64,000 nucleotides of DNA from NCBI GenBank assembly GCA_036785375.1, contig JAWMAR010000471.1:992001-1056000 (forward strand). Reading direction: 5' to 3'. Positions within the stretch are counted from its first letter, which is position 1. Each line of letters opens with the position of its first letter. This stretch comes from Leucoraja ocellata. Its lineage: Eukaryota. The position numbers were made by a program, and so were the translations under genes. Below are positions 7,354 through 61,293 of this stretch, in pieces. The notes beneath the pieces were generated by a model that saw only the letters and a list, made by a program, of their open reading frames with translations, searched no databases and was not told the origin of the DNA.

Positions 7354-9790
7354 TCAGTTTGCCAATTTAAATAACTTTCCAGTGCAACGGATCGGGTACG
7401 TTAGCACACGGAACAGCTCCTCTCTGAACTTGCTCTGGGTCACGGTGTAAATGGCCGTGTTGGTGCACGAGCTCAGCAGCTGAAGCATGTATCCAACATT
7501 TTCCAATCCTTCCAAAGGGTTTCCCCAGGCCTTGTGCATAAACACATTCAAACATCGAACCGCAATAAAATATGCAACACTTGTGGCCCAGAGCAGGATG
7601 AAAGAGCTCGAGATTGCCAGAGTAAAACGACCGACCGTCTGCGGTTCACCATCTCCTGGTCTTTCTTTTTCTCCCCACCGCTGAGGTTCCGGAGGTCCAT
7701 GCGGACCTGACTGGCCACGGAAATACGTCTGACGGTGAGCGCGTTAAACAACAAAATCAGGCAGAATGGAATCACCGGGGTGAACAACTGTTCGGCCCAA
7801 GAGAACACCATCCATTCGGGATGAATGTAAAAATGTACGAGTTTGAAGCAGCCTAGTTCTCTACCCGTTCCTCGATAAGAAGTGTATGCGAAGGGCAAGG
7901 GTAGATGTTTGAGGCAGACGAGCGGGCTCACCGTCAGGATAACAATCGTCGCCGTTCTCTCGGTGCAATAGTTGGTTTTCATTTTCTGAGTAGAAATCGC
8001 AACAAAGCGATCAAAGGTGAAAGCGACTGTGAACCAAACAGAACAATTCACAGAGACTGATGCCAGGTAGATTGTTATTTTACACACAGGAGTGTAGGGC
8101 AAGGAAGCATGCCACCAATACATATCGGCAATCCGGTGAAATATCACCTCACAGAAAATCACAGAGAGGTCCGCGGTCGCCATGGCTACCATGTAACGAG
8201 TGATGCACTTGGAGAGGCCGCACTTGCCACGGGACAGGATCACAATCGCCATCAGATTCACTGGGAAATAATGAAAACAGAAACTGATTAATTGTGTGGT
8301 GGGTGGGAGCAGACGGAGTCATTTAAACCTGTGTCGCCAGTGGCAGAGACTATTTTGTTTAACGAATCAATATTTGGGTAAATCACCCGTCAAACGTTTG
8401 CCAAAAAGTTGTTCAATCTGTAAATTATTAAATTCCTGATTACCAAAATTAGTGGGATTGCCTTATGTAGAAAATAATTACATAAAGATGAAAATATTGG
8501 TGCAAAAGGCAATCCGATTTTAGAAATCAGGAATTTAATCTGCAAATGAATAAATCCCGTTGACCAAATTAGTGGGATTGCCTTATGTACTAATTTTCAC
8601 AAAATTATGCCAATCGCTTGATATTGATGTAACATCCATCGTTTGCATCGTGGCATTGAGTCACTCGTGGTCTGGATTAACGCGGTCTGTTTTCCATTGG
8701 GCCTTCGAGAATGTATTTCCGAACATGAAAGGGTTTCAGTGAAGCGCAGCAAATATAATTACAAACAACCTTCACAAACAAGGCTAACAACATAACGGGC
8801 AAGTATTTTCTGCCGAATATCGGGCGGGCCTCCGTACGGTACCTGACAAAAAAAGGTGCTGGAGTATCTCAGTGGCGGAGGCAATATCTCTGGAGGACAT
8901 AGATATGCGACGTATCAGCTCGAGACCCTTCTTCAGACTCCGATCGGCAGAATGATCCTGACCCGATACGTCGACTGCGTCGGTCCTCCAGAGATGCTGC
9001 AAGACTGGCTGAGTTAACCAGTTCTTTGGTTCCACTGCAAGATCGCTGCACGTGTAGTTTATTTCATCTGTGCTCCGTTTTTGTGGAACAGGTTGTTTGT
9101 ACGACCTTCAAATCTGGCTTTGCTAAATTATCCCTATGAGAATTTAAGAGCGATACGGAAAATGCAGTGTCAAATGACTGATCGGGGTTTATTCTCGTTC
9201 TGCCGAGTGCAGTACGCACAGTGGAACAGAAACTGCCACTCACAGCGAGGACGAAGTTCCCTTTCACCTCGCAACAGCGCAAGTACGGACATTGATTTTA
9301 GTAAAAAGCCACGAAGGCTACATTTCTGCCAGCTTCAATGAGCGGCATCCATCACATATACCAACGCGCTACCTCGCTCCTAAGATGCACATCGCTTATT
9401 TTATTTTAGTTTAGGAATACAGCGCGAAAGCACAACTACCGGCCCACCTAATCCGCACCGATCACGCACACTCCTACACACACAAGGAACAATTTATTTT
9501 ACTTTTATGGAGCGTGGGAGCAAACCGAAGATCTCGGGGAAACCCCAAAAGGATACGGGGAAAACGTACAGACTCCGTACAGCCAAGCGCTGTAAGACAG
9601 TTACTCTAGCGCTGTACCAGCGTGCGGTCCGAACCCCCGCTCGGCTACTCGCTATGTCCTCTTAACCTTTAATATTCTGCGCTCTTCAAACATGAGATGT
9701 GCCGACAATTACCTACCAGGTATACCGATTGCTGCCAGAATCGGATAATACACAAGTACTATTTTTAACCGCGATCGGAATAACGTGCAT
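7354..9790 (-). pseudogene. GPR139-like GPCR copy A; exon 1 9717-9790, exon 2 7354-8260; frameshifted
   Basis: Exon 1 is 74 nt versus 73 nt in intact copies (+1). There is a 1-nt deletion near 7620 (GCCAGAGTAAA versus GCCAGAAGTAAA). Sequencing error is possible. Confidence 0.75.
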
Positions 9791-10074
9791 TGTAATGCGA
9801 CGGTCCAGGCGATCACTCCTTGTGCTGCCGCTCAGCGGTTGTCAGCGAAACAAACCAATATCTGGCATATTTATAATGTAAATGAAGGGAAAAACAGGCA
9901 ACGAGATTACATCCCTGCGGACATTACTTACACATTTTTGAACAAACATCTAATGTTTTCCATGTAACTTTCAAAATGATCTTATCCTGAAGAATAAGTT
10001 CTGAAACGTTGCCTATTTCCTTCGCTCCATAGATGCTGCTGCAACCGCTGAGTTTCTCCAGCACTTTTGTCAAC

Positions 10075-12439: not shown

Positions 12440-12464
12440 ACCATTTATTCCCAGAGAGGGCGCG

Positions 12465-12507
12465 ATGGGAATCCTCCTGTGTTTTGTGCTGTCACTCTGC
12501 TTACGCC
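12465..12507 (+). CDS. Leader exon of NAR-TCR V (unit A): MGILLCFVLSLCLR
   Basis: Hydrophobic signal peptide, 43 nt, phase-1 donor GTGAGT at 12508; conserved in all four units. Confidence 0.85.
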
Positions 12508-12658
12508 GTGAGTACCGGTCCCCCTACTCCCACACAGTGCGGGTTATAAAACAACTCGAGTCCACTCCGACCTGAATTTCAAACACTGTCCGCGATGTAT
12601 CCTTCTGCCGCGGTTCGCCTCGAATTCGCACTAACCTCTCCCTGTGTTTCATCTACAG

Positions 12659-12964
12659 ACTCCTTCAGCCAGTCAGTGACCCAGAGCCCGAATGCGGTGA
12701 CTGGAAAAGAGTGTGAGCCCGTCACCATCACCTGCCTTTTCCAAATTCATTTCTGGGGCAGTTACAGATTACAGGCTGGACATTTCTTCAAGCGTGCACA
12801 GTCCGATGCACAGTGGCAGCGGGTCACTCCAGGTGGACGGTTTGTTGTGTGGATTAATATAGCGAAAAAGACCTTTTCGTTGAAAATTATTCGTTTGAGA
12901 GTTGAGGATATGGCCACATATTACTGTCAAGCTGAGTACAAATGGACTAAGCAGCGGGACTACC
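12659..12964 (+). CDS. NAR-TCR-type (VNAR-like) V exon, apparently germline VD-joined (unit A)
   Basis: ctaac branch point and ctacag acceptor. QSVTQ..KECEP..ITC..GGRF..KTFSLKI..VEDMATYYC matches the VNAR pattern (short FR2-CDR2). Ends in KWTKQRDY. Confidence 0.85.
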
Positions 12965-12992
12965 CACAGTGTAGGAGAGTCGAGTAAAAACT
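12965..12992 (+). other. 12-RSS 3' of VD-A
   Basis: CACAGTG - TAGGAGAGTCGA (12 nt) - GTAAAAACT. Confidence 0.85.
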
Positions 12993-13303
12993 CACCCCAT
13001 TCAAGATATATATTCTTGGGTTCCGGAACCAAAATCATACGATTATTGTTCGTGACGCTGTCGTCCAGATAAATTACACAGGGATTACCGCATTCCGTTA
13101 ACATTCCCTAATAATTGGTTCAGTGTTTGTTAAAGCACACCGGCCTGCGTGTTGGAGATCACTCTGCTCTTAGCTCTGTTTCTTAGCGGGAACTGGTCGA
13201 CCCACCGATGAGTTGGAAGAAAGGATAGTTACTGGTTGGTCTGAAACTCCTGGAATAATTGGACCACGATTCTAATGGTTGCCGGGCAAATCGCGGGGAG
13301 AAC

Positions 13304-13342
13304 GGTTCTTGTACCGCGAGCATCGACAGACGGGGCACTGTG
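13304..13342 (+). other. 23-RSS 5' of J-A
   Basis: GGTTCTTGT - 23 nt - CACTGTG. Confidence 0.9.
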
Positions 13343-13406
13343 GATGGGGCTTCATGGAACACTTACTATCAGGATGGGACGGGGACTACGGTGACTGTCA
13401 CAGCCG
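13343..13406 (+). CDS. NAR-type J segment (unit A): DGASWNTYYQDGTGTTVTVTA
   Basis: DGxGTxVTV motif typical of NAR J; 5' RSS; phase-1 GTAAGT donor at 13407. Confidence 0.9.
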
Positions 13407-17600: not shown

Positions 17601-19111
17601 CTGTGGAAATCTCTGCCTCAGAGGGCGATGGAGGCCGGTCCTCTGGATGCTTTCAAGAGAGAGCCAGATATGCTCTTAAAAATAGCGGAGTCAGGGGATA
17701 TTCGGAGCGGAGGCAGAGGGAGTACAGAGAAGGTTCACCAGACTGATTCCTGGGATGTCAGGACTTTCATATGAAGAAAGACTGGATGGACTCGGTAGAA
17801 TTTAGACGATTGAGGGGGGATCTTATAGAAACTTACAAAATTCTTAAGGGGTTGGACAGGCTAGGTGCAGGAAGATTGTTCCCGATGTTGGGGAAGTCCA
17901 GAACAAGGAGTCACAATTTAAGGATAAGGGGGAAATCTTTTAGGACCGAGATGAGGAAAACCTTTTTCACACAGAGAGTGGTGTGAATCTCTGGAATTCT
18001 CTGCCGCAGAAGGTAGTTGAGGCCTGTTCATTGGCTATATTTAAGAGGGAGTTAGATGTGGCCCTTGTGGCTAAAGGGATCAGGGGGTATGTAGAGAAGG
18101 CAGGTACAGATTACTGAGTTGGATGATCAGCCATGATCATATTGAATGGCGGTGAGACTCGAAGGGCCGAATGGCCTACTCCTGCACCTATCTTCTATGT
18201 TTCCATGTTCTATGATATGGGGAGAAGGCAGGAACGGGGTACTGATTGTGGATTGATCAGCCATGATCACATTGAATGGCGGTGCTGGCTCGAAGGGTCG
18301 AATGGCCTACTCCTGCACCTATTGTCTATTGTCTATTCTTTCACTTCAGGACAGCAAGTTTTAAACACCCACATAGTAATGCTTTGTAGAGTTGATCGGC
18401 ATTAATCATCAATATTTTTTTGGGAGATGCAATATACTTTCAATGTGGACAACAGCGGAGAAGGTAATAGTCTAGCAAATTAATTCAAGCCATTTGGACT
18501 AATGGACGGCCGCTGCATCCAAAGACACAGACAAGTTGGAAAAGGGACAATGAGCTTCGTTGCGATTGTGCCTGCCTACCGGAGAGAAATATGGTTCACA
18601 ATTTTCCGCATCACACCGAATAATTCCGCTCAGATTTACATTTCACCGAATTCGCGACTAAACATGTCCCCGTGAGGGATGCTGCATGATAATGTTGGCA
18701 GAGTTGACATATGGGCACCTGGAGGCGTGTATTGTCACTTACTTTATCAGCCATTGGTTTGTGAATGTGAGTTTTGTGGCAACGGTACGTTTTTTTCAAT
18801 GATGAAAGGAAATCATATCTGCAACACGTTGCACGCATTTAACTGAAAATAATCACTCGTTTTGAAAACAATATGTTCCAGGCATATGCATATATATTCG
18901 TGAAAAAACAGAAGTTGAATGATTGAACTGAGCACTTGGGAAAACGTAGAAGAGGTGAGACTCAATTGAAGAAAGAAGTTGGGCGTGACCGACAGGACGA
19001 ATGGACATAAAATGTCCACACATTAAATGCTGTGTTTTCATAATTACCCTACAGCAAAGCAACGCATGAAGCACAGGCTGGTCACTCGCTTTTGCTATAT
19101 TATTTTAACTA

Positions 19112-21754
19112 TCAGTTTGCCAATTCAAATAACTTTCCAGTGCAACGGATCGGGTACGTTAGCACACTGAACAGCTCCTCTCTGAACTTGCTCTGGGGTC
19201 ACGGTTGTAAATGGCCGTGTTGGTGCAGGAGCTCAGCAGCTGAAGCATGTATCCAACATTTTCCAATCCTTCCAAAGGGTTCCCCAGGGCCTTGTGCATA
19301 AAACACATTCAAACATCGAACCGCAATAAACTGTGCAACACTTGTGGCCCCAGAGCAGGATGAAGGAGCTCGAGATTGCCAGAAGTAAAACGACCGACCG
19401 TCTGCGGTTCACCATCTCCTGGTCTTTCTTTCTCTCCCCACCGCTGAGGTCCCCGGAGGTTCCTGCGGACCCGGCTGGCCACGAAAATACGTCTGACAGT
19501 GAGCGCGTTAAACAACAAAATCAGGCAGAATGGAATCACCGGGGTGAACAACTGTTCGGCCCAAGAGAACACCAACCATTCGGGCCATGAACGTAAAAAT
19601 GTACGCGTTTGAGGCAGCCCAGTTCTCCACCCATTCCGAGATAAGAAGTGTATGCAAAGGGCAAGGGTAGATTTTTGAGGCAGATGACGGGCTCACCATC
19701 AGGATAACAATCGTCGCGGTTCTCTCGGTGCAATATTTGGTTTTCATGTTCTGAGTAGAAATTGCAACAAAGCGATCAAAGGTGAAAGCGACTGTGAACC
19801 ACACAGAACAATTCACCGTGACTGACGCGAGGTAGATTGTCATTTTGCACACAGGAGTGTAGGGCAAGGAGGCACGCCACCCAATAAATATCAGCACTCC
19901 GGTGAAATATCACCTCACAGAAAATCACAGAGAGGTCCGCGGTAGCCATGGCTACCATGTAACGAGTGATGCACTTGGAGAGGCCGCACTTGCCACGGGA
20001 CAGGATCACAATCGCCATCAGATTCACTGGGAAAGAATGAAAACAGAAACTGATTAATTGTGTGGTGTGGTGGATGGGAGCAGACTGAGTCATTTAAACC
20101 TGTGTCGCCAGTGGCAGAGACTATTTTTTTTAACGAAACAATATTTGGGTAAATCACCCCGTCAAACGTTTGCCAAAAAGTTGTTCAATCTGTAAATTAT
20201 TAAATTCCTGATTACCAAAATTAGTGGCATTGCCTTATGTAGAAAATAATTACATAAAGATGAAAATATTGGTGCAAAAGGTAATCCGATTTTAGAAATC
20301 AGTAATTTAATCTGCAAATGAATAAAATCCCGTTTACCAAAATTAGCGGGATTGCCCTATGTACTAATTTTCACAACATTATGCCAATCGCTTGATATTG
20401 ATGTAACATCCATCGTGGATGTAAAATATACAATATTCTCAACACGTCAGTCAGTGTCTCTAAAGAATGGAATTAACTATCCAAAAGTACCGTCCATCAA
20501 ATCAGAATTAAGAGGGGATCCTCCCAATATCAAATATTTGATTTCATTTTTATAACCGTAAATTCAAATGCGCAGTGTCTTTTTTATTGCTGAGACTTGA
20601 GCAACGTTTGCATCGTGGCATTGAGTTAATCGTGGTCTGGATTAACGCGGTCTGTTTTCCATTGGGCCTTCGAGAATGTATTTCCGAACATGAAAGGGTT
20701 TCAGTGAAGCGCAGCAAATATAATTACAAACACCCTTCACATACACGGCTGACAACATAACGGGCAAGTATTTTCTGCCGAACAGCGGGCGGGCCTCCGT
20801 ACGGTACCTGACAAGAAAAGGTGCTGGAGTATCTCAGTAGCGGAGGCAATATCTCTGGAGGACATAGATATGCGACGTATCAGCACGAGACCCTTCTTCA
20901 GACTCCGATCGGCAGAATGATCCCGACCCGATACGTCGACTGCGTCGGTCCTCCAGAGATGCTGCAAGACTGGCTGAGTTAACCAGTTCTTTGGTTCCAC
21001 TGCAAGATCGCTGCACGTGTAGTTTATTTCATCTGTGCTCCGTTTTTGTGGAACAGGTTGTTTGTACGACCTTCAAATCTGGCTTTGCTAAATTATCCCT
21101 ATGAGAATTTAAGAGCGATACGGAAAATGCAGTGTCAAATGACTGATCGGGGTGTATTCTCGTTCTGCCGAGTGCAGTACGCACAGTGGAACAGAAACTG
21201 CCACTCACAGCGAGGACGAAGTTCCCTTTCACCTCGCAACAGCGCAAGTACGGACATTGATTTTAGTAAAAAGCCACGAGGGCTACATTTCTGCCAGCTT
21301 CAATGAGCGGCATCCGTCACATATACCAACGCGCTACCTCGCTCCTAAGATGCACATCGCTTATTTTAGTTTAGTTTAGGAATACAGCGCGAAAGCACAA
21401 CTACCGGCCCACCTAATCCGCACCGATCACGCACACTGCTACACACACAAAGGACAATTTATTTTACTTTTATGGAGCGTGGGAGCAAACCGAAGATCTC
21501 GGGGAAACCCCAAAAGGATACGGGGAAAACGTACAGACTCCGTACAGCCAAGCGCTGTATATCAGTTACTCTAGCGCTGTACCAGCGTGCCGCCCGAATC
21601 CCCGCTCGGCTACTCGCTATGTCCTCTTAACCTTTAATATTCTGCGCTCTTCAAACATGAGATGTGCCGACAATTACCTACCAGGTATACCGATTGCTGC
21701 CAGAATCGGATAATACACAAGTACTATTTTTACCGCGATCGGAATAACGTGCAT
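19112..21754 (-). pseudogene. GPR139-like GPCR copy B; exon 1 21682-21754 intact (MHVIPIAVKIVLVYYPILAAIGIP), exon 2 19112-20026 with many 1-nt indels
   Basis: The coding sequence is split across several ORF frames. The surrounding region is indel-rich relative to A, so errors are possible. Confidence 0.7.
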
Positions 21755-22347
21755 TGTAATGCGACGGTCCAGGCGATCACTCTTTGTGCTGCCGCTCAGC
21801 GGTTGTCAGCGAAACAAACAAATATCTGGCATATTTATAATCTAAATGAAGGGAAAAACAGGCAACGAGATTACATCCCTGTGGACATTACTTACACATT
21901 TTTGAACAAACATCTAATGTTTTCCATGCAATATTCAAAATGACCTTATCCTGAAGAATAAGTTCTGAAACGTTGCCTATTTCCTTCGCTCCATAGATGC
22001 TGCTGCAACCGCTGAGTTTCTCCAGCACTTTTGTCAACCTTATTCTTAAAATGTGGCTCCCTGTTTCTGCACGCCCCCAAAATCGAAAACATGGTTCGTG
22101 TCCAAACACTTAATAATCTTACATGTTTAAATAAGATTCCCTCTCATCCTTCCAAATTCCAGAGTATACAAGCTCAGCCGCTCCATTCTCTCAACATGTA
22201 ACAGCCCCACCATCCCGGGCATTAACCTTGTGAACGAACGCTGCATTCCCTCAATAGCATGAATATTGGACCGGCTAGATGGAGGAAACATGTCTCACCA
22301 ATGTCCTGTACAACTGCAGAAGGACCTATGTACAACTGCAGAAGGAC

Positions 22348-25274
22348 TGCGGAGCAACGGAGCGGCATAACACCAGTGCGCACCAAGCCAGCTCGGCCCA
22401 CCAGAAGCACCAACAGACGGCGACGCGTACGAAAACACCGCCGGGGACGCAGAGGTGGGTTAAAGGCCAGGTTAGAGCTAGCCCCACACAGGGTAGCGAT
22501 TCCTAGCGTTTTCCTCGCCAACGTGCGCTCACTGGCAAACAAAATGGACGAACTCCGGCTAAGGATCACCTCCCACAACTGGATCAAGGACTGCAACATC
22601 CTGATCATCACGGAAACTTGGCTCAACACTGACGTCCCTGACAGCGCCATCCAGCTATCGGGGCGTCATTTACTCCGAGCGGGCAGGACATCGGACTCTG
22701 GTAAGACCAGAGGTGGGGGTCTGTGCATTTATGTAAACAAAGCATGGTGCACGGACTCCACCATCATCGAGAGTCACTGCTCAGCTAACCTTGAGTTCCT
22801 CTTGGTTAGATGCAGACCGTTCTATCTGCCCAGAGAGTTCACCTCCACTGTTGTGACTGCAGCCTATATCCCTCCTGATGCTAATGCCAAGCTTGCAATG
22901 AAAGAGCTGCATACTGCCATTAGCAAACAACAGACTCACAACCCCGAGGCAGCCTTCATTGTTGCGGGTGACTTCAATCACTCTAACCTGAAGACTGTAC
23001 TCCCCAAATTCCACCAACGTGTATCCTTCCCCACTAGAGTAGACAAGACACTGGACAAAGTCTACACCAACATGGCTGAAGCTTACAAAGCCATCCCCCT
23101 CCCCCACCTTGGTCAGTCTGATCACGTCTCATTGTTCCTGCTCCCTAAGTACTCCCCACTCATCAGACGGGTTAAACCAACTGTGAGGACAGTTAAAGTC
23201 TGGTCAGAGGAAGCGGACTTCACACTTCAGCAGTGTTTTGGAAACACTGAATGGAAGGCGTTTGCAGCCCAGGCCACCCTTGACTCCCACACGGACATTG
23301 ATTCCTACACATCCTCTGTTCTGGACTTTATAAACTCCACCACCAATAGTGTCACCTCCCTCAAACAGGTGACCATATACCCGAATCAGAAGCCATGGAT
23401 GAACAGCGAGGTCAGGCTACTGCTGAAAGCACGGGACACCGCTTTCAGGTCAGGCGATGCTCGAACCTACAGTTCATCCAGGGCTAACCTGAAGAGGGGC
23501 ATCAGGAAGGCCAAGCACTGCCATAAGCTCACGATTGAGGAGCAGTTCTACAACAACTCCGACCCCCGACTCATGTGGTAAGGCATTCAGGCCATCACGG
23601 ACTACAGACCCTCCAACATCACCCCCACATCCAGCGACGCCTCCTTCCTTGAGGAGCTTAATCACTTCTATGGCCGCTTCGACAGGGACAATCTAGAGAC
23701 AGCCATCAAGGCTGTGCTACCTGCCGATCACCAACCCCTCACACTCACCCCCTACGACGTATACGTGGCACTGAGTAGGACTAATACACGTAAAGCTGTG
23801 GCCCTGACGGCATTCCCGGGCGCGTGCTCAGGGCCTGTGCTGCGCAGCTGACAGACGTCTGGACTGACATCTTCAACCTGTCACTTGCCCAAGCAGTTGG
23901 CCCCACTTGCCTTAAAACCACCTCCATCGTGCCAGTGCCAAAACACTCCAATGCGGCAAGCCTCAACGACTTCCGCCCAGTTGCACTTACCCCCATCATC
24001 ACCAAGTGCTTCGAGAGGCTGGTCCTGGCACACCTCAAAAGCTGCCTACGCCCCACACTGGATCCCTATCAGTTTGCCTACCGCAAGAACAGGAGTACGG
24101 AGGATGCCATCTCAACGGCACTTCGCTCCGCCCTCTCCCACCTCGACAACAGAGACACTTACGTAAGAATGCTGTTCATCGATTACAGCTCAGCATTCAA
24201 CACCATTATACCATCAAAACTGATCACCAAACTCGGTAACCTGGGCATCGACCCATCCCCCTGCAACTGGATACTGGACTTTCTAACCAACAGACCCCAG
24301 TCTGTGAGGTTAGACAAGCACACCTCTTCAACCCTCAACCTGAACACCGGCGTTCCACAGGGCTGTGTGCTGAGCCCCCTCCTCTACTCCCTCTTCACCT
24401 ATGACTGCACACCTGTACATGGTACTAACACCATCATCAAGTATGCAGATGATACAACGGTGATTGGCCTCATCAGCAACAACGATGAGCTGGCCTACAG
24501 GGAGGAGGTCCAGCACTTAGCAGCATGGTGCGCTGACAACAACCTGGTCCTTAACTCCAAGAAGACCAAGGAGCTCATTGTAGACTTCAGGAAGTCCAGA
24601 GGCGGCACGCACATTAACGGGACGGAGGTGGAACGTGTTTCTAGCTTCAGGTTCCTGGGAGTCAACATCTCCGATGACCTCTCTTGGACCCACAATACCT
24701 TTACTCTGATCAAGAAGGCTCATCAGCGTCTCTTCTTCCTGAGGAGACTGAAGAAGGTCCATCTGTCTCCTCAGATCCTGGTGAACTTCTACCGCTGCAC
24801 CATCGAGAGCATCCTTACCAACTGCATCACAGTATGGTATGGCAAATGCTCTGTCTCCGACCGGAAGGCATTGCAGAGGGTGGTGAAAATTGCCCAACGC
24901 ATCACCGGTTCCTCGCTCCCCTCCATTGAGTCTGTCCAAAGCAAGCGCTGTCTGCGGAGGGCGCTCAGCATCGCCAAGGACTGCCCTCACCCCAACCATG
25001 GACTGTTTACCCGCCTACCATCCGGGAGGCGCTACAGGTCTCTCCGTTGCCGGACCAGCAGGTCGAGGAACAGATTCTTTCCGGCGGCTGTCACTCTACT
25101 CAACAACGTACCTCGATGACTGCCAATCACCCCCCCCCCGGACACTTATTGTTATTTATTCAAATTGTTTGCTATGTCGCTCTTCCAGGGAGATGCTAAA
25201 TGCATTTCGTTGTCTCTGTACTGTACACTGACAATGACAATTAAAATTGAATCTGAATCTGAATCTGAATCTGA
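22348..25274 (+). mobile_element. Rex1/Babar-like LINE, near-full EN+RT ORF, inactivated
   Basis: APE endonuclease motifs (ITETWL, AGDFN, SDH) and RT motifs ([12 protein letters not shown]). Stop at 23579-23581 and frameshift near 23795. (TGAATC)n tail. Absent at the paralogous site in unit A (~10360). Confidence 0.9.
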
Positions 25275-27973: not shown

Positions 27974-28016
27974 ATGGGAATCCTCCTGTGTTTTGTGCTA
28001 TCACTCTGCTCACGCC
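27974..28016 (+). CDS. Leader exon of NAR-TCR V (unit B)
   Basis: MGILLCFVLSLCSR with GTGAGT donor. Confidence 0.85.
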
Positions 28017-28171
28017 GTGAGTACCGGTCCCCCTACACCCACACAGTGCGGGTTTAACATAAAACAACTCGTGTCCACTCCGACCTGAATTTCAAACACT
28101 GTCCGCGATGTATCCTTCTGCCGCGGTTCGCCTCGAATTCGCACTAACCTCTCCCTGTGTTTCATCTACAG

Positions 28172-28477
28172 ACTCCTTCAGTCAGTCAGTGACCCAGAGC
28201 CCGAATGCGGTGACTGGAAAAGAGTGTGAGCCCGTCACCATCACCTGCCTTTTCCAAATTCATTTCTGGGGCAGTTACAGATTACAGGCTGGACATTTCT
28301 TCAAGCGTGCACAGTCCGATGCACAGTGGCAGCGGGTCACTCCAGGTGGACGGTTTGTTGTGTGGATTAATATAGCTAAAAATACCTTTTCGTTGAAAAT
28401 TATTCGTTTGAGAGTTGAGGATATGGCCACATATTACTGTCAAGCTGAGTACAAATGGACTAAGCAGCGGGACTACC
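28172..28477 (+). CDS. NAR-TCR-type V exon, germline VD-joined (unit B)
   Basis: Nearly identical to A, with the same junction TGGA-CTAAG-CAGCGGGACTACC. Confidence 0.85.
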
Positions 28478-28505
28478 CACAGTGTAGGAGAGTCGAGTAA
28501 AAACT
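28478..28505 (+). other. 12-RSS 3' of VD-B
   Basis: CACAGTG-12-GTAAAAACT. Confidence 0.85.
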
Positions 28506-28815
28506 CACCCCATTCAAGATATATATTCTTGGGTTCCGGAACCAAATCACACGATTATTGTTCTTGACGCTGTAGTCCAGATAAGTTACACAGGGATTAC
28601 CGCATTCTGTTAACATTCCCTAATAATTGGTTCAGTGTTTGTTAAAGCACACCGGCCTGCGTGTTGGAGATCACTCTGCTCTTAGCTCTGTTTCTTAGCG
28701 GGAACTGGTCGACCCACCGATGAATTGGAAGAAAGGATAGTTACTGGTTGGTCTGAAACTCCTGGAATAATTGGACCGCGATTCTAATGGTTGCCGGGCA
28801 AATCGCGGGGAGAAC

Positions 28816-28854
28816 GGTTCTTGTACCGCGAGCATCGACAGACGGGGCACTGTG
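28816..28854 (+). other. 23-RSS 5' of J-B
   Basis: GGTTCTTGT-23-CACTGTG. Confidence 0.9.
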
Positions 28855-28918
28855 GGTGGGGCTTCATGGAGCACTTACTATCAGGATGGGACGGGGACTA
28901 TGGTGACTGTCACAGCCG
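28855..28918 (+). CDS. NAR-type J segment (unit B): GGASWSTYYQDGTGTMVTVTA
   Basis: J motif, RSS and GTAAGT donor. Confidence 0.9.
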
Positions 28919-30713: not shown

Positions 30714-31019
30714 ATTCCATTTCCGCGGGTTCCCAGAATCCGCCTCAACAATCCTCTCTTTCTGGTGACACTGCCACCCTTAACTGCGTATATTCCGGAA
30801 TCTGCTCGTACACAGTACACTGGTACCGACAGTTCCCAGGGCAGGCTCTGGAATTCCTGCTCCAAAGACACATTTCAGGAAAGCAAGATGAGGAAGAGGC
30901 TGCCGAAGGTCGTATTTCTGGTTCTCTCGATCCAGGACAGAAAATCAGTCAGTTAACGCTCTCTGAAGTACTGCCGAGCGACGGGGCTGTGTATTACTGT
31001 GGGATGAGTCCGCGCATCG
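30714..31019 (+). CDS. Leaderless supporting TCR-delta-like V (unit B)
   Basis: Phase-1 acceptor ttttccgcag is compatible with the J donor. LNC..GICSY..WYRQ..AVYYC. Extra CDR1 Cys. No hydrophobic leader exon found upstream. Confidence 0.85.
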
Positions 31020-31058
31020 CACAGTGGCACAGCGCAGTGAGATAGCTGTACCAAAACC
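31020..31058 (+). other. 23-RSS 3' of supporting V-B
   Basis: CACAGTG-23-ACCAAAACC. Confidence 0.9.
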
Positions 31059-34555: not shown

Positions 34556-35811
34556 TTATTTTAACTCACACTTTACCGATTTAAATATCTTTCCAGTGCA
34601 AATGATCGGATATTTTAGAACACGAAACAGCTCCTCTCTGAACTTGCTCTGGGTCACTGTGTAAATGGCCGTGTTGGTGCAGGAGCTCAGCAGCTGATGC
34701 ATCAATCCAACCCTTTCCAATCCACCCAAGGGGTTTCCCCAGGCCTTGTGCATAAACACATTCAAACATCGAACCGCAATAAAGTGTGCAACACTTGTGG
34801 CCCAGAGCAGTATGAAGCAGCTCGAGATTGCCAGAAGTAAAACGACCGACCGTCTGCGGTTCAACATCTCCTGGTCTTTCTTTTTCTCGCCACCGCTGAG
34901 GTCCCGGAGGTTCCTGCGGACCCGACTGGCCACGAAAATACGTCTGACGGTGAGCGCGTTAAACAACAAAATCAGGCAGAATGGAATCACCGGGGTGAAC
35001 AACTGTTCGGCCCAAGAGAACACTATCCATTCGGGATCAACGAAGAAATATATGAATTTCAGGCAGCCCACTTCTCCAGCGGCACCGTAAATAGAAGTGT
35101 ATGCAAAGGGCAAGGGTAGATTTTTGAGGCAGATGAGCGGGCTCACGGTCAGGATAACAATCGTCGCGGTTCGCTCGGTACAATATTTGGTTTTCATTCT
35201 CTGAGTAGAAATCGCAACAAAGCGATCAAAGGTGAAAGCGACTGTGAACCACACAGAACAATTCACAGAGACTGATGCCAGGTAGATTGTCATTTTACAC
35301 ACAGGAGTGTAGGGCACGGAGGCATGCCACCAATACATATCAGCAATCCGGTGAAATATCACCTCACAGAGAATCACGGAGAGGTCCGCGGTCGCCATGG
35401 CTACCATGTAACGAGTGATGCACTTGGAGAGGCCGCACTTGCCACGGGACAGGATCACAATCGCCATCAGATTCACTGAGAAAAAATGAAACGAGAAACG
35501 GATTAATTTTGAGGTGTACAGGTTGGTGGGTGGGAGCAGACGGAGAAAACCGAAGATTTCGGGGAAAACCCAAAAGGATACGGGGAGGAGTACATCTCCG
35601 TACAGCCAAGCGCTGTAAGACAGTTACTCTAGCGCTGTACCAGCGTGCCGCCCGAACCCCGCTGGGCTATTCGCTATGTCCTCTTAACCTTTTATATTCA
35701 GTGCTTTTCAAACATGAGATGCGCCGACAATTACTTACCAGGTATACCGATTGCTGCCAGAATCGGATAATACACACGTCCAAATTTTACCTCGATCGGA
35801 ATACCGTGCAT
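34556..35811 (-). CDS. GPR139-like GPCR copy C, intact, ~330 aa; exon 1 35739-35811, exon 2 34556-35475
   Basis: Exon 1 MHGIPIEVKFGRVYYPILAAIGIP (73 nt, G|GTAAGT) splices in phase to TG AAT CTG ATG. DRF and SSCTNTAIY motifs present. Confidence 0.9.
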
Positions 35812-39095: not shown

Positions 39096-39138
39096 ATGGG
39101 AATCCTCCTGTTGTTTGTGCTGTCACTCTGCTTACGCC
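39096..39138 (+). CDS. Leader exon of NAR-TCR V (unit C)
   Basis: MGILLLFVLSLCLR with GTGAGT donor. Confidence 0.85.
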
Positions 39139-39293
39139 GTGAGTACCGGTCCCCCTACTCCCACACAATGCGAGTTTTACATAAAACAACTCGCGCCCAC
39201 TCCGACCTGAATTTCAAACACTGCCCGCGATGTATCCTTCTGCCGTGGTTCGCCTGGAATTCCCACTCACCTCTCCCTGTGTTTAATCCACAG

Positions 39294-39586
39294 ACTCCGT
39301 CAGTCAGTCAGTGACCCAGGTCCCGAATGCGGTGGCTGGAAAAGAGTGTCAGCCCGTCACCATCACCTGCCTTTTCCAAGAAGGTTCCATTGGCAGCTAC
39401 GTATTTAATGAAGGACATTTCGTCAAGCAAGCACAGTCCGGTGCAACACGGCAGCGGATCACAACAGGTGGACGGATCGTTGTGTCGAACAATAAAGTGG
39501 AAAAGACATTTACGTTGAAAATTCTTGGTTTGAGAGTTGAGGACATGGACACATATTACTGTCGAGCTGAATACAAGTGGAGGAGG
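39294..39586 (+). CDS. NAR-TCR-type V exon, unjoined (unit C)
   Basis: QSVTQVP..KECQP..ITC..GGRI..VEDMDTYYCRAEYKWRR. Confidence 0.88.
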
Positions 39587-39624
39587 CACAGTGATGGGCC
39601 AGCGCTTCGCGCAGCCCAAAAACC
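39587..39624 (+). other. 22(23)-RSS 3' of V-C
   Basis: CACAGTG-22-CCAAAAACC. Confidence 0.9.
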
Positions 39625-39946
39625 CTCACTGCACATTCTGCCAGCAACGTGAAGACAGGAGGTGAACCCACCGGGTAAACCCACGGGCCCGCTTTGTCCC
39701 GCCTGCCCTGCATTCTGGGTTACACCGGATGAAATGTGTGCGATTCAAACAATGGGTTTTCTCCATTTGGCGAGTGCGGCCTAATGCTCCCTTTACCGAA
39801 AATGGTGTAAACGAACTGCCAACGAGAATGACTGACCACTCTTCTGATGCACTACTCCAGACGGGATCCAGTTACAGAAACTGCAATCTGAAAAATGCAT
39901 TCGCTGAACGTTAATCTCCTGCCCGCCCGTCTCGCCGGGCGTCTGG

Positions 39947-39974
39947 GGATTTGAAAGTGACGTGTAACAACGTG
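39947..39974 (+). other. Degenerate 12-RSS 5' of DJ-C
   Basis: GGATTTGAA-12-CAACGTG (or GGGATTTGA-13); retains the terminal GTG. Confidence 0.55.
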
Positions 39975-40050
39975 TGGCCGTTGGGACAGCGTGACTATTG
40001 GGGCATTTACTATCAGGATGGGACGGGGACTACGGTGACTGTCACAGCCG
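39975..40050 (+). CDS. Germline DJ-joined segment (unit C): WPLGQRDYWGIYYQDGTGTTVTVTA
   Basis: J body matches J-A/B, but the J 23-RSS and first ~12 nt are replaced by a D-like sequence containing CAGCGTGACTA; GTAAGT donor. Confidence 0.8.
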
Positions 40051-43325: not shown

Positions 43326-43700
43326 GGTGGCACAACGGTAACGGTGGAGGTGCTGCCTAACAGCGCGTTTAGCACTAGAGACCCGAGTCCGGTCCAGACT
43401 CCGGGTGTTGTTGGTACGGAGTTTGTATGTTCTCCCCATAATCTGTGTGGGTTTCTCCGAGATCTAGGGTTTCTTCCCACACTCCAAATACGGACAGTTT
43501 TGAAGGGTTATTGGCGCTCTATAAATGTAAATATTCCATCGTGTGTGTAGGATAGTGTTAATGTGCGGGGATTGCAGGGCGGCGCGGACTTGGTGGGCCA
43601 GAGGACCCTTTTCCGCGCTGTGTCCCTAAACTAAACTAAACTGAACTAAACTGAACTAATGTAAACTAAACCAAACTCTACTAAAGTAAACTAACCTAAT
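43326..43700 (+). mobile_element. tRNA-derived SINE (HE1/V-SINE-like) with (CTAAA)n tail; paralog 56360-56693, 3' remnant 30425-30540
   Basis: tRNA-like head, GTTTGTATGTTCTCCCC..GGGTTTCTCCG core, CR1-like 3' end. Confidence 0.6.
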
Positions 43701-43873
43701 CGAAATTAAATCTCCACTCGTCGAGGGAACAATTAAAGGATCCATAAATAACGTTTCCATATATTTTGCAAAAATGTGATGAATTACCGGAGACGGTAAC
43801 TAGTTTCTGTGTGTGTCACAGTCTCCAACAGTCAATGTTAAAACAATAACTATTCCCCTGTTATTTTCCGCAG

Positions 43874-44179
43874 ATTCCATTTCCGCGGGTTCCCAGAGTC
43901 CGCTTCAACAATCCTCTATTTCTGGTGACACTGCCACCCTTAACTGCGTATATTCCGTAATCTGCTCGTACACAGTACACTGGTACCGACAGTTCCCAGG
44001 GCAGGCTCTGGAATTCCTGCTCCAAAGACACACTTCAGGAAAGCAAGATGAGGAAGAGGCTGCCCAAGGTCGTATTTCTGGTTCTCTCGATCCTGCCCAG
44101 AAAATCAGTCACTTAACGCTCTCTGAAGTTCTGCCGAGCGACGGGGCTGTGTATTACTGTGGGATGAGTCCGCGCATCG
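43874..44179 (+). CDS. Leaderless supporting TCR-delta-like V (unit C)
   Basis: Paralog of 30714-31019; VICSY CDR1 Cys; phase-1 acceptor. Confidence 0.85.
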
Positions 44180-44218
44180 CACAGTGGCACAGCGCAGTGA
44201 GATAGCTGTACCAAAACC
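44180..44218 (+). other. 23-RSS 3' of supporting V-C
   Basis: CACAGTG-23-ACCAAAACC. Confidence 0.9.
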
Positions 44219-47636: not shown

Positions 47637-48893
47637 TTATTTTAACTCACACTTTACCGATTTAAATATCTTTCCAGTGCAAATGATCGGATATTTTAGA
47701 ACACGAAACAGCTCCTCTCTGAACTTGCTCTGGGTCACTGTGTAAATGGCCGTGTTGGTGCAGGAGCTCAGCAGCTGAAGCATCAATCCAACCCTTTCCA
47801 ATCCACCCAAGGGGTTTCCCCAGGCCTTGTGCATAAACACATTCAAACATCGAACCGCAATAAAGTGTGCAACACTTGTGGCCCAGAGCAGTATGAAGCA
47901 GCTCGAGATTGCCAGAAGTAAAACGACCGACCGTCTGCGGTTCAACATCTCCTGGTCTTTCTTTTTCTCGCCACCGCTGAGGTCCCGGAGGTTCCTGCGG
48001 ACCCGACTGGCCACGAAAATACGTCTGACGGTGAGCGCGTTAAACAACAAAATCAGGCAGAATGGAATCACCGGAGTGAACAACTGTTCGGCCCAAGAGA
48101 ACACTATCCATTCGGGATCAACGAAGAAATATATGAATTTCAGGCAGCCCACTTCTCCAGCGGCACCGTAAAAAGAAGTGTATGCAAAGGGCAAGGGTAG
48201 ATTTTTGAGGCAGATGAGCGGGCTCACGGTCAGGATAACAATCGTCGCGGTTCTCTCGGTACAATATTTGGTTTTCATTCTCTGAGTAGAAATCGCAACA
48301 AAGCGATCAAAGGTGAAAGCGACTGTGAACCACACAGAACAATTCACAGAGACTGATGCCAGGTAGATTGTCATTTTACACACAGGAGTGTAGGGCACGG
48401 AGGCATGCCACCAATGCATATCAGCAATCCGGTGAAATATCACCTCACAGAGAATCACGGAGAGGTCCGCGGTCGCCATGGCTACCATGTAACGAGTGAT
48501 GCACTTGGAGAGGCCGCACTTGCCACGGGACAGGATCACAATCGCCATCAGATTCACTGAGAAAGAATGAAACGAGAAACGGATTAATTTTGAGGTGTAC
48601 AGGTTGGTGGGTGGGAGCAGACGGGGAAAACCGAAGATTTCGGGGAAACCCCAAAAGGATACGGGGAGCAGTACAATCTCCGTACAGCCAAGCGCTGTAA
48701 GACAGTTACTCTAGCGCTGTACCAGCGTGCCGCCCGAACCCCGCTGGGCTATTCGCTATGTCCTCTTAACCTTTAATATTCAGGGCTTTTCAAACATGAG
48801 ATGCGCCGACAATTACCTACCAGGTATACCGATTGCTGCCAGAATCGGATAATACACACTTCCAAATTTTACCTCGATCGGAATACCGTGCAT
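47637..48893 (-). CDS. GPR139-like GPCR copy D, intact, ~330 aa; exon 1 48821-48893, exon 2 47637-48556
   Basis: 73-nt exon 1 MHGIPIEVKFGSVYYPILAAIGIP in phase with the 306-aa ORF. Confidence 0.9.
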
Positions 48894-52150: not shown

Positions 52151-52193
52151 ATGGGAATCCTCCTGTTGTTTGTGCTGTCACTCTGCTTACGCC
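52151..52193 (+). CDS. Leader exon of NAR-TCR V (unit D)
   Basis: MGILLLFVLSLCLR with GTGAGT donor. Confidence 0.85.
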
Positions 52194-52346
52194 GTGAGTA
52201 CCGGTCCCCTACTCCCACACAGTGCGGGTTTTACATAAAACAACTCGAGTCCACTCCGACCTGAATTTCAAACGCTGCCCGTGATGTATCCTTCTGCCAT
52301 GGTTCGCCTGGAATTCCCACTCACCTCTCCCTGTGTTAATCCACAG

Positions 52347-52638
52347 ATTCCGTCAGTCAGTCAGTGACCCAGATCCCGAATGCGGTGACTGGAAAAGAGT
52401 GTCAGCCCGTCACCATCACCTGCCTTTTCCAAGAAGGTTCCATTGGCAGCTACGTATTTAATGAAGGACATTTCGTCAAGCAAGCACAACCCGGTGCTAC
52501 ACGGCAGCGAATCACAACAGGTGGACGGATCGTTGTGTCGAACAATAAAGTGGAAAAGACATTTACGTTGAAAATTCTTGGTTTGAGAGTTGAGGACATG
52601 GACACATATTACTGTCGAGCTGAGTACAAGTGGAGGAG
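52347..52638 (+). CDS. NAR-TCR-type V exon, unjoined (unit D)
   Basis: Paralog of V-C with an open frame. Confidence 0.88.
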
Positions 52639-52676
52639 CACAGTGATGGGCCTGCGCTTCGCGCAGCACAAAAACA
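52639..52676 (+). other. 22-RSS 3' of V-D
   Basis: CACAGTG-22-ACAAAAACA. Confidence 0.9.
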
Positions 52677-52999
52677 CTCACTGCACATTCTGCTAGCAAC
52701 GTGAAGACGGGAGGTGAACCCACCGGGTAAACCCACGGGCCCGCTTTGTCCCGCCTGCCCTGCATTCTGGGTTACACCGGATGAAATGCGTGCGATTCAA
52801 ACAATGGGTTTTCTCCATTTGGCGAATGTGGCCTAATGCTCCCTTTACCGAAAATGGTGTAAACGAGCTGCCAACGAGAATGACTGACCACTCGTCTGAT
52901 GCAAAACTCCAGACGGGATCCCAGTTACGGAAACTGCAATCTGAAAAATGCATTCGCTGAACGTTAATCTCCTGCCCGCCCGTCTCACCGGGCGCCTGG

Positions 53000-53027
53000 G
53001 GATTTGAAAGTGACGTGTGACAACGTG
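53000..53027 (+). other. Degenerate 12-RSS 5' of DJ-D
   Basis: GGATTTGAA-12-CAACGTG. Confidence 0.55.
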
Positions 53028-53103
53028 TGGCCGTTGGGACAGCGTGACTATTGGGGCATTTACTATCAGGATGGGACGGGGACTACGGTGACTGTCACAG
53101 CCG
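53028..53103 (+). CDS. Germline DJ-joined segment (unit D)
   Basis: Identical to DJ-C. Confidence 0.8.
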
Positions 53104-58160: not shown

Positions 58161-58786
58161 TGGAACCTGTCCAGTTTGTAAACTACGGCGGGAAATTTAG
58201 GTACAAACTATTTGGCCCACTGTTTTTTTGTTCCCAGTTACAATTCCCTGATCATTAATTGGATGTCCGTTGCCACTAAGTGCAGAAACATTTATTGGGT
58301 TTATGGAACGTGCAGCTATAAGAGGTGGTGGAGAAAGGAACAGAAGATGCTGGTTTACACCGGAGAATGGCACAAACTGCCGGAGTGACTCGGCGGGTAA
58401 AAGTGTCTTCGGTGGAGAAAAAGGATGGATGATGTTTCTGGTCGGGACCCTTCTTCCGCCAGAAAGTAGAGCGGAGGGCACCGGATGTCGGAAGCCCAGC
58501 TGCTCCATTCTCTCAGCATCCGACAGTCCCGCCATCTATGGAGCGAAGGAATAGATTGATGGAGAAACTCAGCGGGCGAGGTAGCATCGATGGAGCAAAG
58601 GAACACCTATTTCTTCGCTCCATCGATGCTGCCTCACCCGCTGAGTTTCTCCAGCATTTTGTCTACCTTCCATTGTTCCAGCAGCTGCAGAACTTTCTTA
58701 AACTAATGTTTAAACTAAATGTTTGTATTTTCACAAACATCCGATAATCAAACCACTCACGTGTTGTAGTGATATTATTTTAATGA

Positions 58787-61293
58787 TCACTTTACCAATT
58801 GCCCTATATTTTTATCGCAACGGAATGGGTATGTTAGCACACGGACCAACTCATCTCTGAACTTGCGCTGTGTCACGGTGTAAATGGCCGTGTTGGTGCA
58901 GGAGCTCAGGAGCTGAAACATAAATCCAACCTTTTCAAATTCGAACAGGGGGTTTGTCCAGGACCTGCGTAAGGGCAAATTAAAACATCGAAGCACAATA
59001 AAATGTGCGACACTTGTGGCCCAGAGCAGGATGAAGGAGCTCGAGATTGCCAGAAGTAAAACGACCGAGCGTCTGCGGTTCATCATCTCCTGGTCTTTCT
59101 TTTTCTCGCCACCGCTGAGATCTCGGAGGCTCCTGCGGACCCGACTGGCCACGGAAATACGTCTGACGGTGAGCGCGTTAAACAACAGAATCAGGCAGAA
59201 TGGAATCACCGGGGTGAACAACTGTTCGATCCAAGAGAACACCATCCATTCGGGAAGCATATAAAAAAAAACGTCTTTGCCGCAGCCCAGATTCAGTTCA
59301 GTTAGGGAATTAGAAACGTATGCGAATGGCAAAGGTGTATTCAGAAGGCAGACGAACGGGGTCACTGTCATAATAACAATCGACGCGGTTCTCTCGGTGC
59401 AATATTTGGCCTTCATATTCTTAGTAGAAATCGCAACAAAGCGATCAAATGTGAACGCGACTGTGAACCATACAGAACAATCCACCGTGACTGATGCCAG
59501 GTAGATTGTTATTTTGCACACAGGAGTGTAGGACAAGGAGGCATGCCACCAATAATTATCAGCAATCCGGTGACATATCACCTCACAGAAAATCACAGAG
59601 AGGTCCGCGGTCGCCATGGCTACCATGTAACGAGTGATGCACTTGGAGAGGCCGCACTTGCCACGGGACAGGAGCACAATCGCCATCAGATTCACTGGGA
59701 AAGAATGAAAACAGAAACGGATTAATTGTGTGGTGTATAGGTTGGGGGGGATGGGAGCAGACGGTGTAATTTAAACCTGTGTCTCCAGTGGTAGAGACTA
59801 TTTATTTAATTAATCAATATTTGGGACAGTCACCCGTCCAGCGTATGCCAGAACTATGTTCAATCAGATATTTATTAAATCCTGATTACCAACATTAGTG
59901 GCATTGCCATATGTAGAAAATAATTACATAAAGATGAAAAAATTGGTACAAGAGGCAATCCGATTTTTGAAATCAGGGATTTAGTCTGCAAATGAATAAA
60001 ATCCCGTTTACCAAAATTAGCGGGGTTGCCTTATGTAGTAATCTTCACATCATTATGCCAATCGCTTGATGTTGATGTAACATCCATCGTTGATGTAAAA
60101 TATACAATATTTTCAACCGGTCAGTGTCTCTGAAAAATGGAATTAACAATCTAAATTACCGTCTAATAAGTCAGAATAAAGAGGGGATCCTCCCAATATC
60201 AAATATGTGATTTAATTTTCCAACATGAAAGGATTTCAGGGAAGCGCAGCAAATAAAATTACAAACACCCTTCACAAACAAGGCTAACAACATAACGGGC
60301 AAGTATTTTCTGCCGAACAGCGGGCGGAGGGCGGACCTGTGTTCTGTCGCTGACAAGAAAGGTGCTGGAGTATCTCAGTGGCGGAAGCAATATATCTGGA
60401 GGACATAGATAGGCGACGTATCAACTCCGATCCCCTTCTTCAGACTCTGATCGGAACAATGATCCCAACCCGATACGTCGACAGCGTCGGTCCTCCAGAG
60501 ATGCTGCAAGACTGGCTGAGTTAACCAGTTATTTGGTTCCACTGCAAGATTTCTGCACTTGTAGTTTATTTTATCTGTACTGCGATTTTGTGGAACAGTT
60601 GTACGTACGACCTTCAAACCTGTCTCTGCGAAATTATCCTATGAGAATTTAAGAGCGATACAGAAATGCAGTGTCAAATTACTGGACCGGGGTGTATTTC
60701 TCGTTCTGCCGAGTGCAGTACGCACAGTGGAACAGAAACTGCCACTCACAGCGAGGACGAAGTTTCGCTTCACCGACCGGCATCGATTTCAGTTAAAAGC
60801 CGCGAAACTACATTCCTGCCAACGCCAATGAGCGGCATCCATCACATACACCATCGCGCTTCCTCGCTCCTAAGATGTACATTGCTTTGTTTATTTTAGT
60901 TTAGGAATACAGCGCGAAAACAGGGAAACAGCCAACGTAATCCGCGCCGACCGCGCACACTAACACGAGCCGACACACACCAGGACAATTTATTTTACTT
61001 TTATGGAGCGTGGGAGGTAACCGAAAATCTGGTGGAAAACCTAAAAGGTTACGGGGACAAGGTACAACTCCGCACAGACATCCGCTGTAAGACAGTTGGT
61101 CTAACGCTGCGCGCCGTGCAGCCTAACGCCTGCTAGTTATTCGGTATGTTCCTTAACCTTTAATATTCTGCGCGTTTAAAAACATTCTTTGTTAGTTCCA
61201 TGCGATGTACCGACAATTACCTACCAGGTATACGATTACTGCCAGAATCGGGTAATACACATTTTCTATATCCGCGATCTCCACATAATCCAT
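58787..61293 (-). CDS. GPR139-like GPCR copy E; exon 2 58787-59694 intact, exon 1 61225-61293 one nt short of phase
   Basis: 302-aa ORF. Exon 1 MDYVEIADIENVYYPILAVI lacks one base of GGT ATA CCT. An alternative donor 4 nt downstream restores phase. Confidence 0.7.

What the first reader, a model, noticed from the sequence alone, without database searches (positions are those of the whole stretch)
7354..61293. Orphan GPCR gene co-amplified 1:1 with each NAR-TCR cassette
Seen: every unit has one GPR139-like gene on the minus strand, head-to-head with the NAR V leader (ATG to ATG 2.7 kb in A, 3.3 kb in C and D). It sits between the previous supporting V and the next NAR V. Copies C and D are intact. 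Inference: the duplication unit is GPCR + NAR V(D)J + supporting V. Its promoter faces a V promoter, so it may be co-activated in T cells. This could be a coupled immune receptor/GPCR module or passive hitch-hiking, analogous to olfactory receptors among mammalian TRA/TRD V genes and trypsinogens in TRB.
Basis: partly seen in the sequence, partly recalled or inferred. Interest (0 to 1): 0.75.

Follow-up and report, generated by a model that had tools for sequence, protein, structure and literature searches.

The report
Orphan GPCRs copied with NAR-TCR cassettes
In a skate-like fish, each repeated block of an unusual two-V T-cell receptor gene sits head-to-head with a gene from a very large shark-and-ray receptor family; the pairing also appears in related skates and likely reflects a working receptor gene copied along as a passenger, with no evidence yet that T cells use it.

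Summary
The layout is real. Five minus-strand, two-exon class A GPCR genes recur in 12-13 kb blocks; four face a NAR-TCR V leader at 2,675, 6,220, 3,285 and 3,258 bp; C and D are intact (330 aa). The supporting V is seen in only 2 units (gaps hide the rest), unit E has no V in the window, and a sixth GPCR lies outside any unit. The genes belong to a family of at least 2,176 protein clusters, named only from cartilaginous fish among the top hits and distantly related to GPR139. The link recurs in little skate and thorny skate (one model shows the same orientation) and on the sawfish record; it was not seen in 3 sharks. The GPCRs show purifying selection outside the extracellular loops and fast change inside them, so they are probably functional. 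But 1:1 is what tandem duplication gives automatically, the spacer is repeat-filled with separate promoter motifs, and no expression data support coupling. Best reading: functional passengers captured once in batoids. Side finding: the NAR cassettes appear germline-joined in two reciprocal ways (VD-J, V-DJ).

The parts
876..1786 (+). Sixth family GPCR, exon 2 only, different subfamily, outside the cassettes
   Evidence: ORF and 7tm_1 match; 41% identical to copy C; acceptor read from sequence
7354..9790 (-). GPCR A: exon 1 9717-9790, exon 2 7354-8260; two one-base indels, no premature nonsense codon in the C frame
12465..12964 (+). NAR V cassette A: leader 12465-12507, V exon 12659-12964 running into a D-like tail, then heptamer with 12-bp spacer at 12965
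13343..13406 (+). J of cassette A, preceded by a 23-bp-spacer RSS (heptamer ends 13342)
19112..21754 (-). GPCR B: exon 1 21682-21754 intact, exon 2 from 20026 with 8 indels (end coordinate approximate)
22328..25272 (+). LINE (endonuclease + reverse transcriptase) inserted between GPCR B and NAR V B, absent from A
   Evidence: Pfam matches; alignment break against A
27974..28918 (+). NAR V-J cassette B (leader 27974, V 28172-28477, 12-RSS 28478, 23-RSS 28854, J to 28918)
30714..31058 (+). Supporting V of unit B with CDR1 cysteine and 23-bp-spacer RSS at 31020
34556..35811 (-). GPCR C, intact, 330 aa; exon 1 35739-35811, exon 2 34556-35475; TATA-like motif about 80 bp upstream
39096..40050 (+). 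NAR cassette C: leader 39096, V 39294-39586, RSS with 22-bp spacer 39587, weak 12/13-bp RSS ending 39974, D-J-like segment 39975-40050
43874..44218 (+). Supporting V of unit C with 23-bp-spacer RSS at 44180
47637..48893 (-). GPCR D, intact, 330 aa, 3 amino acids different from C in exon 2
52151..53103 (+). NAR cassette D (leader 52151, V 52347-52638, RSS 52639, D-J-like segment 53028-53103)
58787..61293 (-). GPCR E, older sister lineage; exon 2 intact, exon 1 one base short; no V seen before the window ends

Best explanation
Each 12-13 kb block holds one GPCR gene head-to-head with a NAR-TCR V-J cassette, and the GPCR is likely a working receptor gene that was captured once beside a NAR V in a ray/skate ancestor and then copied as a passenger whenever the cassette was tandemly duplicated. 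Shown: the anatomy, the block-wise similarity, the family membership, dN below dS outside the extracellular loops and faster change inside them. Inferred: the TCR alpha/delta region already carried scattered members of this family; unequal crossing-over copied V cassette and neighbour together; each gene runs from its own promoter; the receptor is kept by its own selection and would sense diverse extracellular ligands other than GPR139's, in cells chosen independently of V usage. Any transcription in NAR-TCR T cells would be a by-product of open chromatin.
For: Coding and non-coding DNA of a block diverge together with the same A/B versus C/D grouping, as passive copying predicts. The family is huge and not tied to NAR cassettes: 2,176 of 3,290 candidates at E<=1e-10; of the 120 listed, 118 carry a name, all from cartilaginous fish, on dozens of records; a sixth member sits outside the units; close clade members lie on other records in thorny skate (131 Mb) and little skate (170 kb), and the clade expanded separately in two sharks (14 and 13 rows). 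In horn shark the NAR cassettes are on a 59,489,666-bp record while the member nearest this clade is on a 19,484,767-bp record. Spacer varies 2.7-6.2 kb, tolerates a 2.9-kb LINE, and is 20-49% repeat; each side has its own motif. Non-loop dN/dS 0.39-0.51 in 9 of 10 pairs (C-D 0.16 on 3 changes), p 0.001-0.03 in the 6 pairs tested; 31 of 60 loop positions vary against 49 of 245 elsewhere, p 2e-6. Precedent: olfactory receptor genes among human and mouse TRAV genes (PMC4574546).
Against: The pairing has lasted across three skates and possibly sawfish with the same orientation in one thorny-skate model, and the GPCRs have mostly not decayed, which a coupled module also predicts. The apparent mismatch in thorny skate (10 cassette models, 2 GPCR models) is unreliable because at least one GPCR there is hidden inside a V model. 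The shark comparison uses annotated proteins, top-120 lists and mostly fragmented records. No expression data exclude T-cell use.
Confidence: 0.68

Rival explanations
1. Coupled module: when a supporting V rearranges, the blocks downstream would be deleted, and the GPCR facing the active NAR V promoter would come under the TCR delta enhancer, so each NAR-TCR T-cell clone expresses the GPCR of its cassette as a co-receptor or homing sensor.
For: Fixed head-to-head geometry in 4 of 4 complete pairs; same order in little skate (accessions GPCR, cassette, GPCR) and same orientation in thorny skate; A-type GPCR and A-type V are each closest to adjacent little-skate models; purifying selection with variable loops.
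Against: All of this also follows from tandem duplication of a functional neighbour. Spacer is long and repeat-filled. Clade members lie away from NAR cassettes in other records and in horn shark. The constant region, and so the deletion geometry, is not in the window.
Confidence: 0.13
2. Dead passengers: the GPCRs are decaying pseudogenes dragged along by selection for more NAR-TCR cassettes.
For: 3 of 5 copies are frameshifted as assembled: A 2 indels, B 8, E 1.
Against: No premature nonsense codon in A, B or E when read in the C frame, and non-loop dN/dS stays near 0.4-0.5 in pairs including B. Indels look like long-read errors: 6 of B's 8 lengthen a base run, and its contig end has 62 indels in 5.7 kb (43 of 49 one-base indels in runs) against 4 in 1.7 kb and 4 in 2.8 kb further in. 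Relatives have open frames.
Confidence: 0.08
3. Part of the array is an assembly effect: A/B and perhaps C/D are two haplotypes of one block placed in tandem, so the amplification is smaller than it looks (not exclusive of the best explanation).
For: Every unit boundary is an N gap; two are round 200-N joins; paired units differ by only 2-3%.
Against: B-C and C-D gaps (270, 171 N) have matching flanks on both sides, as true tandem junctions would; A, C and E lineages differ by 8-15% and A- and E-types exist in little skate; thorny skate has 10 cassette models.
Confidence: 0.2

Closest known systems
Olfactory receptor genes among mammalian TRAV genes (human OR10G2, OR4E2; mouse Olfr1507-1509; PMC4574546 passages)
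   Same: Class A GPCR genes from a large multigene family lying between T-cell receptor V genes of the alpha/delta locus, in conserved synteny.
   Different: [quoted passage not shown]
Trypsinogen genes in the TRB locus (PMC8945572 passages)
   Same: Unrelated multicopy genes embedded in a TCR locus with copy-number variation.
   Different: They form their own run between V and D; they are not paired with V cassettes and are proteases.
NAR-TCR of cartilaginous fish (PMC3457774, PMC6795676, PMC5931798 passages; PMC12227049 section 6 and table S1)
   Same: IgNAR-related N-terminal V with its own J, followed by a supporting TCR delta V with RSS; multiple cassettes in the alpha/delta region.
   Different: No neighbouring GPCR is mentioned in the passages or table seen; here no free D was found and cassettes appear partly germline-joined.
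GPR139 / GPR142
   Same: Best solved-structure match of the family profile, full length, E 3.5e-19 against 5.7e-13 for the next; RefSeq label of 116 of 120 hits.
   Different: Single-sequence match is weak (E 1.5e-4, no better than 5-HT2A); 1 of 4 agonist-site residues is kept; thousands of diverging copies rather than one conserved gene.
Partly germline-joined shark Ig clusters (VD-J; PMC4279169 passage) and white-shark 'NARTCR V(gj)' model (table S1)
   Same: Segments pre-joined in the germline, leaving one 12/23-compatible join.
   Different: Here two reciprocal partial joins (VD-J in A/B, V-DJ in C/D) seem to sit side by side in a TCR cassette array.

Membership tests
NAR-TCR cassette | N-terminal V related to IgNAR V | tested here: met
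   Best single-domain solved matches are VNARs, E 4.5e-12; 53-56% to shark two-V models
NAR-TCR cassette | Own J followed in frame by a second, supporting TCR-type V with RSS | tested here: met
   J donor and supporting V acceptor in units B and C; RefSeq two-V models at 88-96% in skates and a full V-J-V-J-C model in Mustelus
NAR-TCR cassette | NAR domain assembled from separate V, D and J | tested here: inconclusive
   12/23-compatible V and J signals present, but no free D found by the RSS scan; D-like bases appear fused to V (A/B) or J (C/D)
NAR-TCR cassette | Supporting V rearranges to TCR delta D-J-C and is expressed in T cells | not testable with these tools
   Constant region outside the window; no genome held
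Class A (rhodopsin-like) GPCR | 7tm_1 domain over seven helices | tested here: met
   E 5.6e-16 to 3.7e-14 for the five frames scanned, above cut-off
GPR139 orthologue | GPR139 is the nearest characterised human relative | tested here: met
   Profile of 40 family sequences ranks GPR139 first among solved structures
GPR139 orthologue | Agonist-site residues F109, H187, W241, N271 (PMC5430874 abstract) | tested here: not met
   Read by hand from the alignment (construct offset 212): only W241 kept; copy C has S, E, W, L
GPR139 orthologue | Single, highly conserved gene | tested here: not met
   2,176 clusters at 90% identity; six copies in this window
Bidirectional (shared) promoter pair | Divergent starts close together (about 1 kb or less, recalled rule) on one compact element | tested here: not met
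   ATG distances 2.7-6.2 kb, 20-49% repeat, separate TATA-like and CRE-like motifs; true start sites not mapped
Bidirectional (shared) promoter pair | Co-expression in the same cells | tested here: inconclusive
   RNA lay had no depth on the V genes either, so it holds no positive control

The most novel reading that the evidence does not exclude
NAR-TCR T cells of skates clonally co-express the GPCR that faces the V cassette they use, so V(D)J choice also picks one member of a diversifying receptor family: a second, recombination-linked receptor repertoire in T cells.
Probability: 0.13. Interest if true: 0.87.

Novelty: new variant of a known kind. Interest (0 to 1): 0.48.

Why it matters
It shows a non-immune-looking GPCR gene built into the duplication unit of a T-cell receptor cassette and kept under selection across skates, which goes beyond the few olfactory genes at the edge of the mammalian locus. 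It gives a direct test (does V usage predict GPCR expression?) and an entry into a very large cartilaginous-fish receptor family for which the searches found no paper. The reciprocal germline joins would be further evidence of RAG activity in germ cells acting on a TCR locus.

Tried and rejected
Whole-genome search: no genome held. Expression: no RNA holder listed; four RNA runs laid on 34400-44300 gave zero depth on NAR V, J and supporting V in 4 of 4, and only paralog-like reads over a short part of GPCR exon 2; most reads were under 95% alike and 1-25% of each run was read, so this is no evidence either way. An independent read check of copy B's indels was not obtained, so their reality stays open. 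NAR V word search found no candidate of similar length. An O/E (EBF)-like motif (consensus recalled) upstream of the GPCRs: 19 matches against 27 expected, rejected. Positive selection in the loops: dN/dS up to 1.6 but not significantly above 1 in the 2 pairs tested (p 0.26, 0.71). Counting 10 cassettes to 2 GPCRs in thorny skate as proof against 1:1: dropped. GPR139 terms in supplements of the bamboo-shark single-cell paper (0 of 4 files) and elephant-shark paper (0 of 1): uninformative, gene naming may differ; the catshark supplement could not be read and may hold expression data. PMC7909615 was not held; the 2006 NAR-TCR paper was not read. No structure or complex prediction was run.
Full report
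Anatomy. The window holds five minus-strand GPCR genes and one plus-strand one, four NAR-type V-J cassettes and two supporting V exons, among many LINE fragments. Each minus-strand GPCR has a 69-74-nt first exon, a phase-1 intron and a long second exon; ATGs are at 9790, 21754, 35811, 48893 and 61293, and the NAR V leaders start at 12465, 27974, 39096 and 52151, giving 2,675, 6,220, 3,285 and 3,258 bp. C and D splice to 330 aa. The supporting V is present after cassettes B and C only; in A and D a 200-N gap begins where it would follow. E has no V before the window ends. All four unit boundaries are N gaps; the 270-N and 171-N gaps have matching flanks on both sides, which supports real tandem order for B-C-D, while the joins A-B and D-E are unverified.

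The V genes. The first V matches shark VNAR structures best among single domains and the second V finds two-V RefSeq models at 88-96% identity in thorny and little skate, 61-65% in sawfish, and a full V-J-V-J-C model in Mustelus (11 of 12 hits are cartilaginous fish). This is a NAR-TCR cassette array, in a skate by nearest homology (GPCR 88% to little skate). The NAR V carries an invariant extra framework-1 cysteine and the supporting V a CDR1 cysteine.

Is 1:1 more than chance? It is not independent evidence. C and D align over 12.1 kb at 2.35% substitution, A and B at 2.2-5.2% by segment, A and C at 8-14% in the four shared segments. Coding and non-coding DNA group the same way, so one juxtaposition was copied with the block.

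The GPCR family. Copy C finds 2,176 clusters at E<=1e-10 among 3,290 candidates; of the 120 listed, 118 are named, all from sharks, rays or chimaera, and 116 are labelled probable GPR139. Human GPR139 is only a weak single-sequence match (E 1.5e-4) but the best match of a 40-sequence profile (E 3.5e-19). Of four agonist-site residues named in the abstract of PMC5430874 only W241 is kept, read by hand. So these are distant relatives, not orthologues. In a 136-row tree (quick method; copy B left out, A partial) copies A, C, D, E form a fully supported clade with two little-skate and two thorny-skate proteins; the E lineage split from A/C before these species did.

Are the GPCRs alive? A has two one-base indels, B eight indels, E one. 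None has a premature nonsense codon in the C frame; their stops fall four codons before C's, where the little-skate protein also ends. Non-loop dN/dS is 0.39-0.51 in 9 of 10 pairs (C-D 0.16 on three changes), below 1 at p 0.001-0.03 in the six pairs tested. The three extracellular loops vary at 31 of 60 positions against 49 of 245 elsewhere (p 2e-6), with dN/dS 0.56-1.63, not significantly above 1 in the two pairs tested. Six of B's eight indels lengthen a base run, and B's contig end shows 62 indels in 5.7 kb against 4 in 1.7 kb further in, which suggests sequencing error; this could not be checked against reads.

Synteny. Little skate, 208,102-bp record: XP_055522161 GPCR..162 NAR V + supporting V..163 GPCR. 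Thorny skate, 59,888,763-bp record: ten cassette models (XP_032890419-22, 25, 26, 44, 45, 48, 49) and two GPCR models (..24..47). One cassette model begins with 64 residues identical to the antisense reading of GPCR exon 2 (65 of 74 aligned), so an unannotated GPCR lies upstream of that NAR V on the opposite strand: orientation is conserved and annotated counts undercount. Sawfish, 57,793,762-bp record: one GPCR (XP_051882913) and three cassettes (..916, 920, 926). Against a universal link: in 0 of 3 sharks with both kinds of hit (horn shark, catshark, Mustelus) do clade members share a record with NAR cassettes, though two of these are fragmented. In horn shark a different family member (P0092), grouped with thorny-skate P0096 and, on a long unsure branch, the window's plus-strand gene, does share the NAR-TCR record. 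So the family's presence on the TCR alpha/delta chromosome looks old, and the capture of this clade into the cassette looks batoid. Earlier scan notes on neighbouring windows report many family genes among ordinary TCR V segments and in pure arrays; these are unchecked leads, consistent with the sixth gene seen here.

Shared promoter? The spacers are 20-49% repeat by within-window counts and B's holds an added 2.9-kb LINE. A TATA-like motif lies about 80 bp above the GPCR ATG (exact pattern in 4 of 5) and a CRE-like motif about 35 bp above each V leader (4 of 4). This is two separate promoters, not one compact element. Enhancer-driven co-activation after rearrangement remains possible but untested; expression data were uninformative.

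Side finding. In A/B the V runs on by 13 bases into a 12-spacer RSS and J has a 23-RSS; in C/D the V ends at a 22-spacer RSS and J is preceded by extra bases and a weak 12/13-spacer signal. The V-J intervals of A and C have no similarity while their flanks are 85% alike. Thorny-skate models read through a C/D-type V signal in 7 of 10 and an A/B-type J signal in 3 of 10. The simplest reading is an ancestral V-23/12-D-12/23-J cassette joined in the germline as VD-J in one lineage and V-DJ in the other (my odds about 0.7; part of the shared D-like string may be J-derived). Partial germline joins are known for shark Ig clusters and a 'gj' NAR-TCR model is listed for white shark.

Literature. Seen: PMC12227049 passages, section 6 and table S1 in full (no GPCR mentioned; supplementary PDF not read); passages of PMC3457774, PMC6795676, PMC3149040, PMC6504862, PMC4574546, PMC8945572, PMC5931798, PMC4279169; abstract of PMC5430874. 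A search requiring GPR139 and shark gave 4 papers, none on this by title or abstract start (not opened); looser searches listed nothing on the linkage. The library lacks most subscription journals, including the main NAR-TCR papers, so absence from print is not established.

Verdict. Observation largely confirmed, duplication unit supported, coupling unsupported. Most likely a functional orphan receptor carried as a passenger in a NAR-TCR cassette array: a new variant of GPCR genes embedded in TCR loci. Interest 0.48.

Noticed in passing
window 12950-13406, 28460-28918 versus 39587-40050, 52639-53103: Two reciprocal RSS layouts suggest germline VD-J (A/B) and V-DJ (C/D) joins of one ancestral V-D-J NAR cassette; thorny-skate models show both unjoined signals.
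   Followed up: partly
window 876-1786 (+): Sixth family GPCR of another subfamily outside the cassettes; related proteins lie on the NAR-TCR records of thorny skate and horn shark.
   Followed up: partly
NAR V framework 1 and supporting V CDR1: Invariant extra cysteine in NAR V framework 1 and in supporting V CDR1, while the NAR J here has none; a V-to-V disulfide between them is possible but untested.
   Followed up: no
window 22328-25272 (+): LINE with long open endonuclease and reverse transcriptase frames inserted only in unit B, between GPCR and V promoters.
   Followed up: partly
P0144 (XP_032890445): A thorny-skate gene model splices an antisense GPCR exon onto a NAR V; the antisense frame is also open for 130 codons in C and D (34698-35087, 47779-48168). 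Probably a prediction artefact.
   Followed up: partly
window 14633-20416: Contig end with a high rate of one-base indels in base runs, likely lower consensus accuracy.
   Followed up: partly
P0005-P0023, P0121-P0131: The same GPCR clade expanded independently in sevengill shark (14 rows, 10 on one 29.8-Mb record) and saw shark (13 rows); whether these sit in NAR-TCR arrays is unknown.
   Followed up: no
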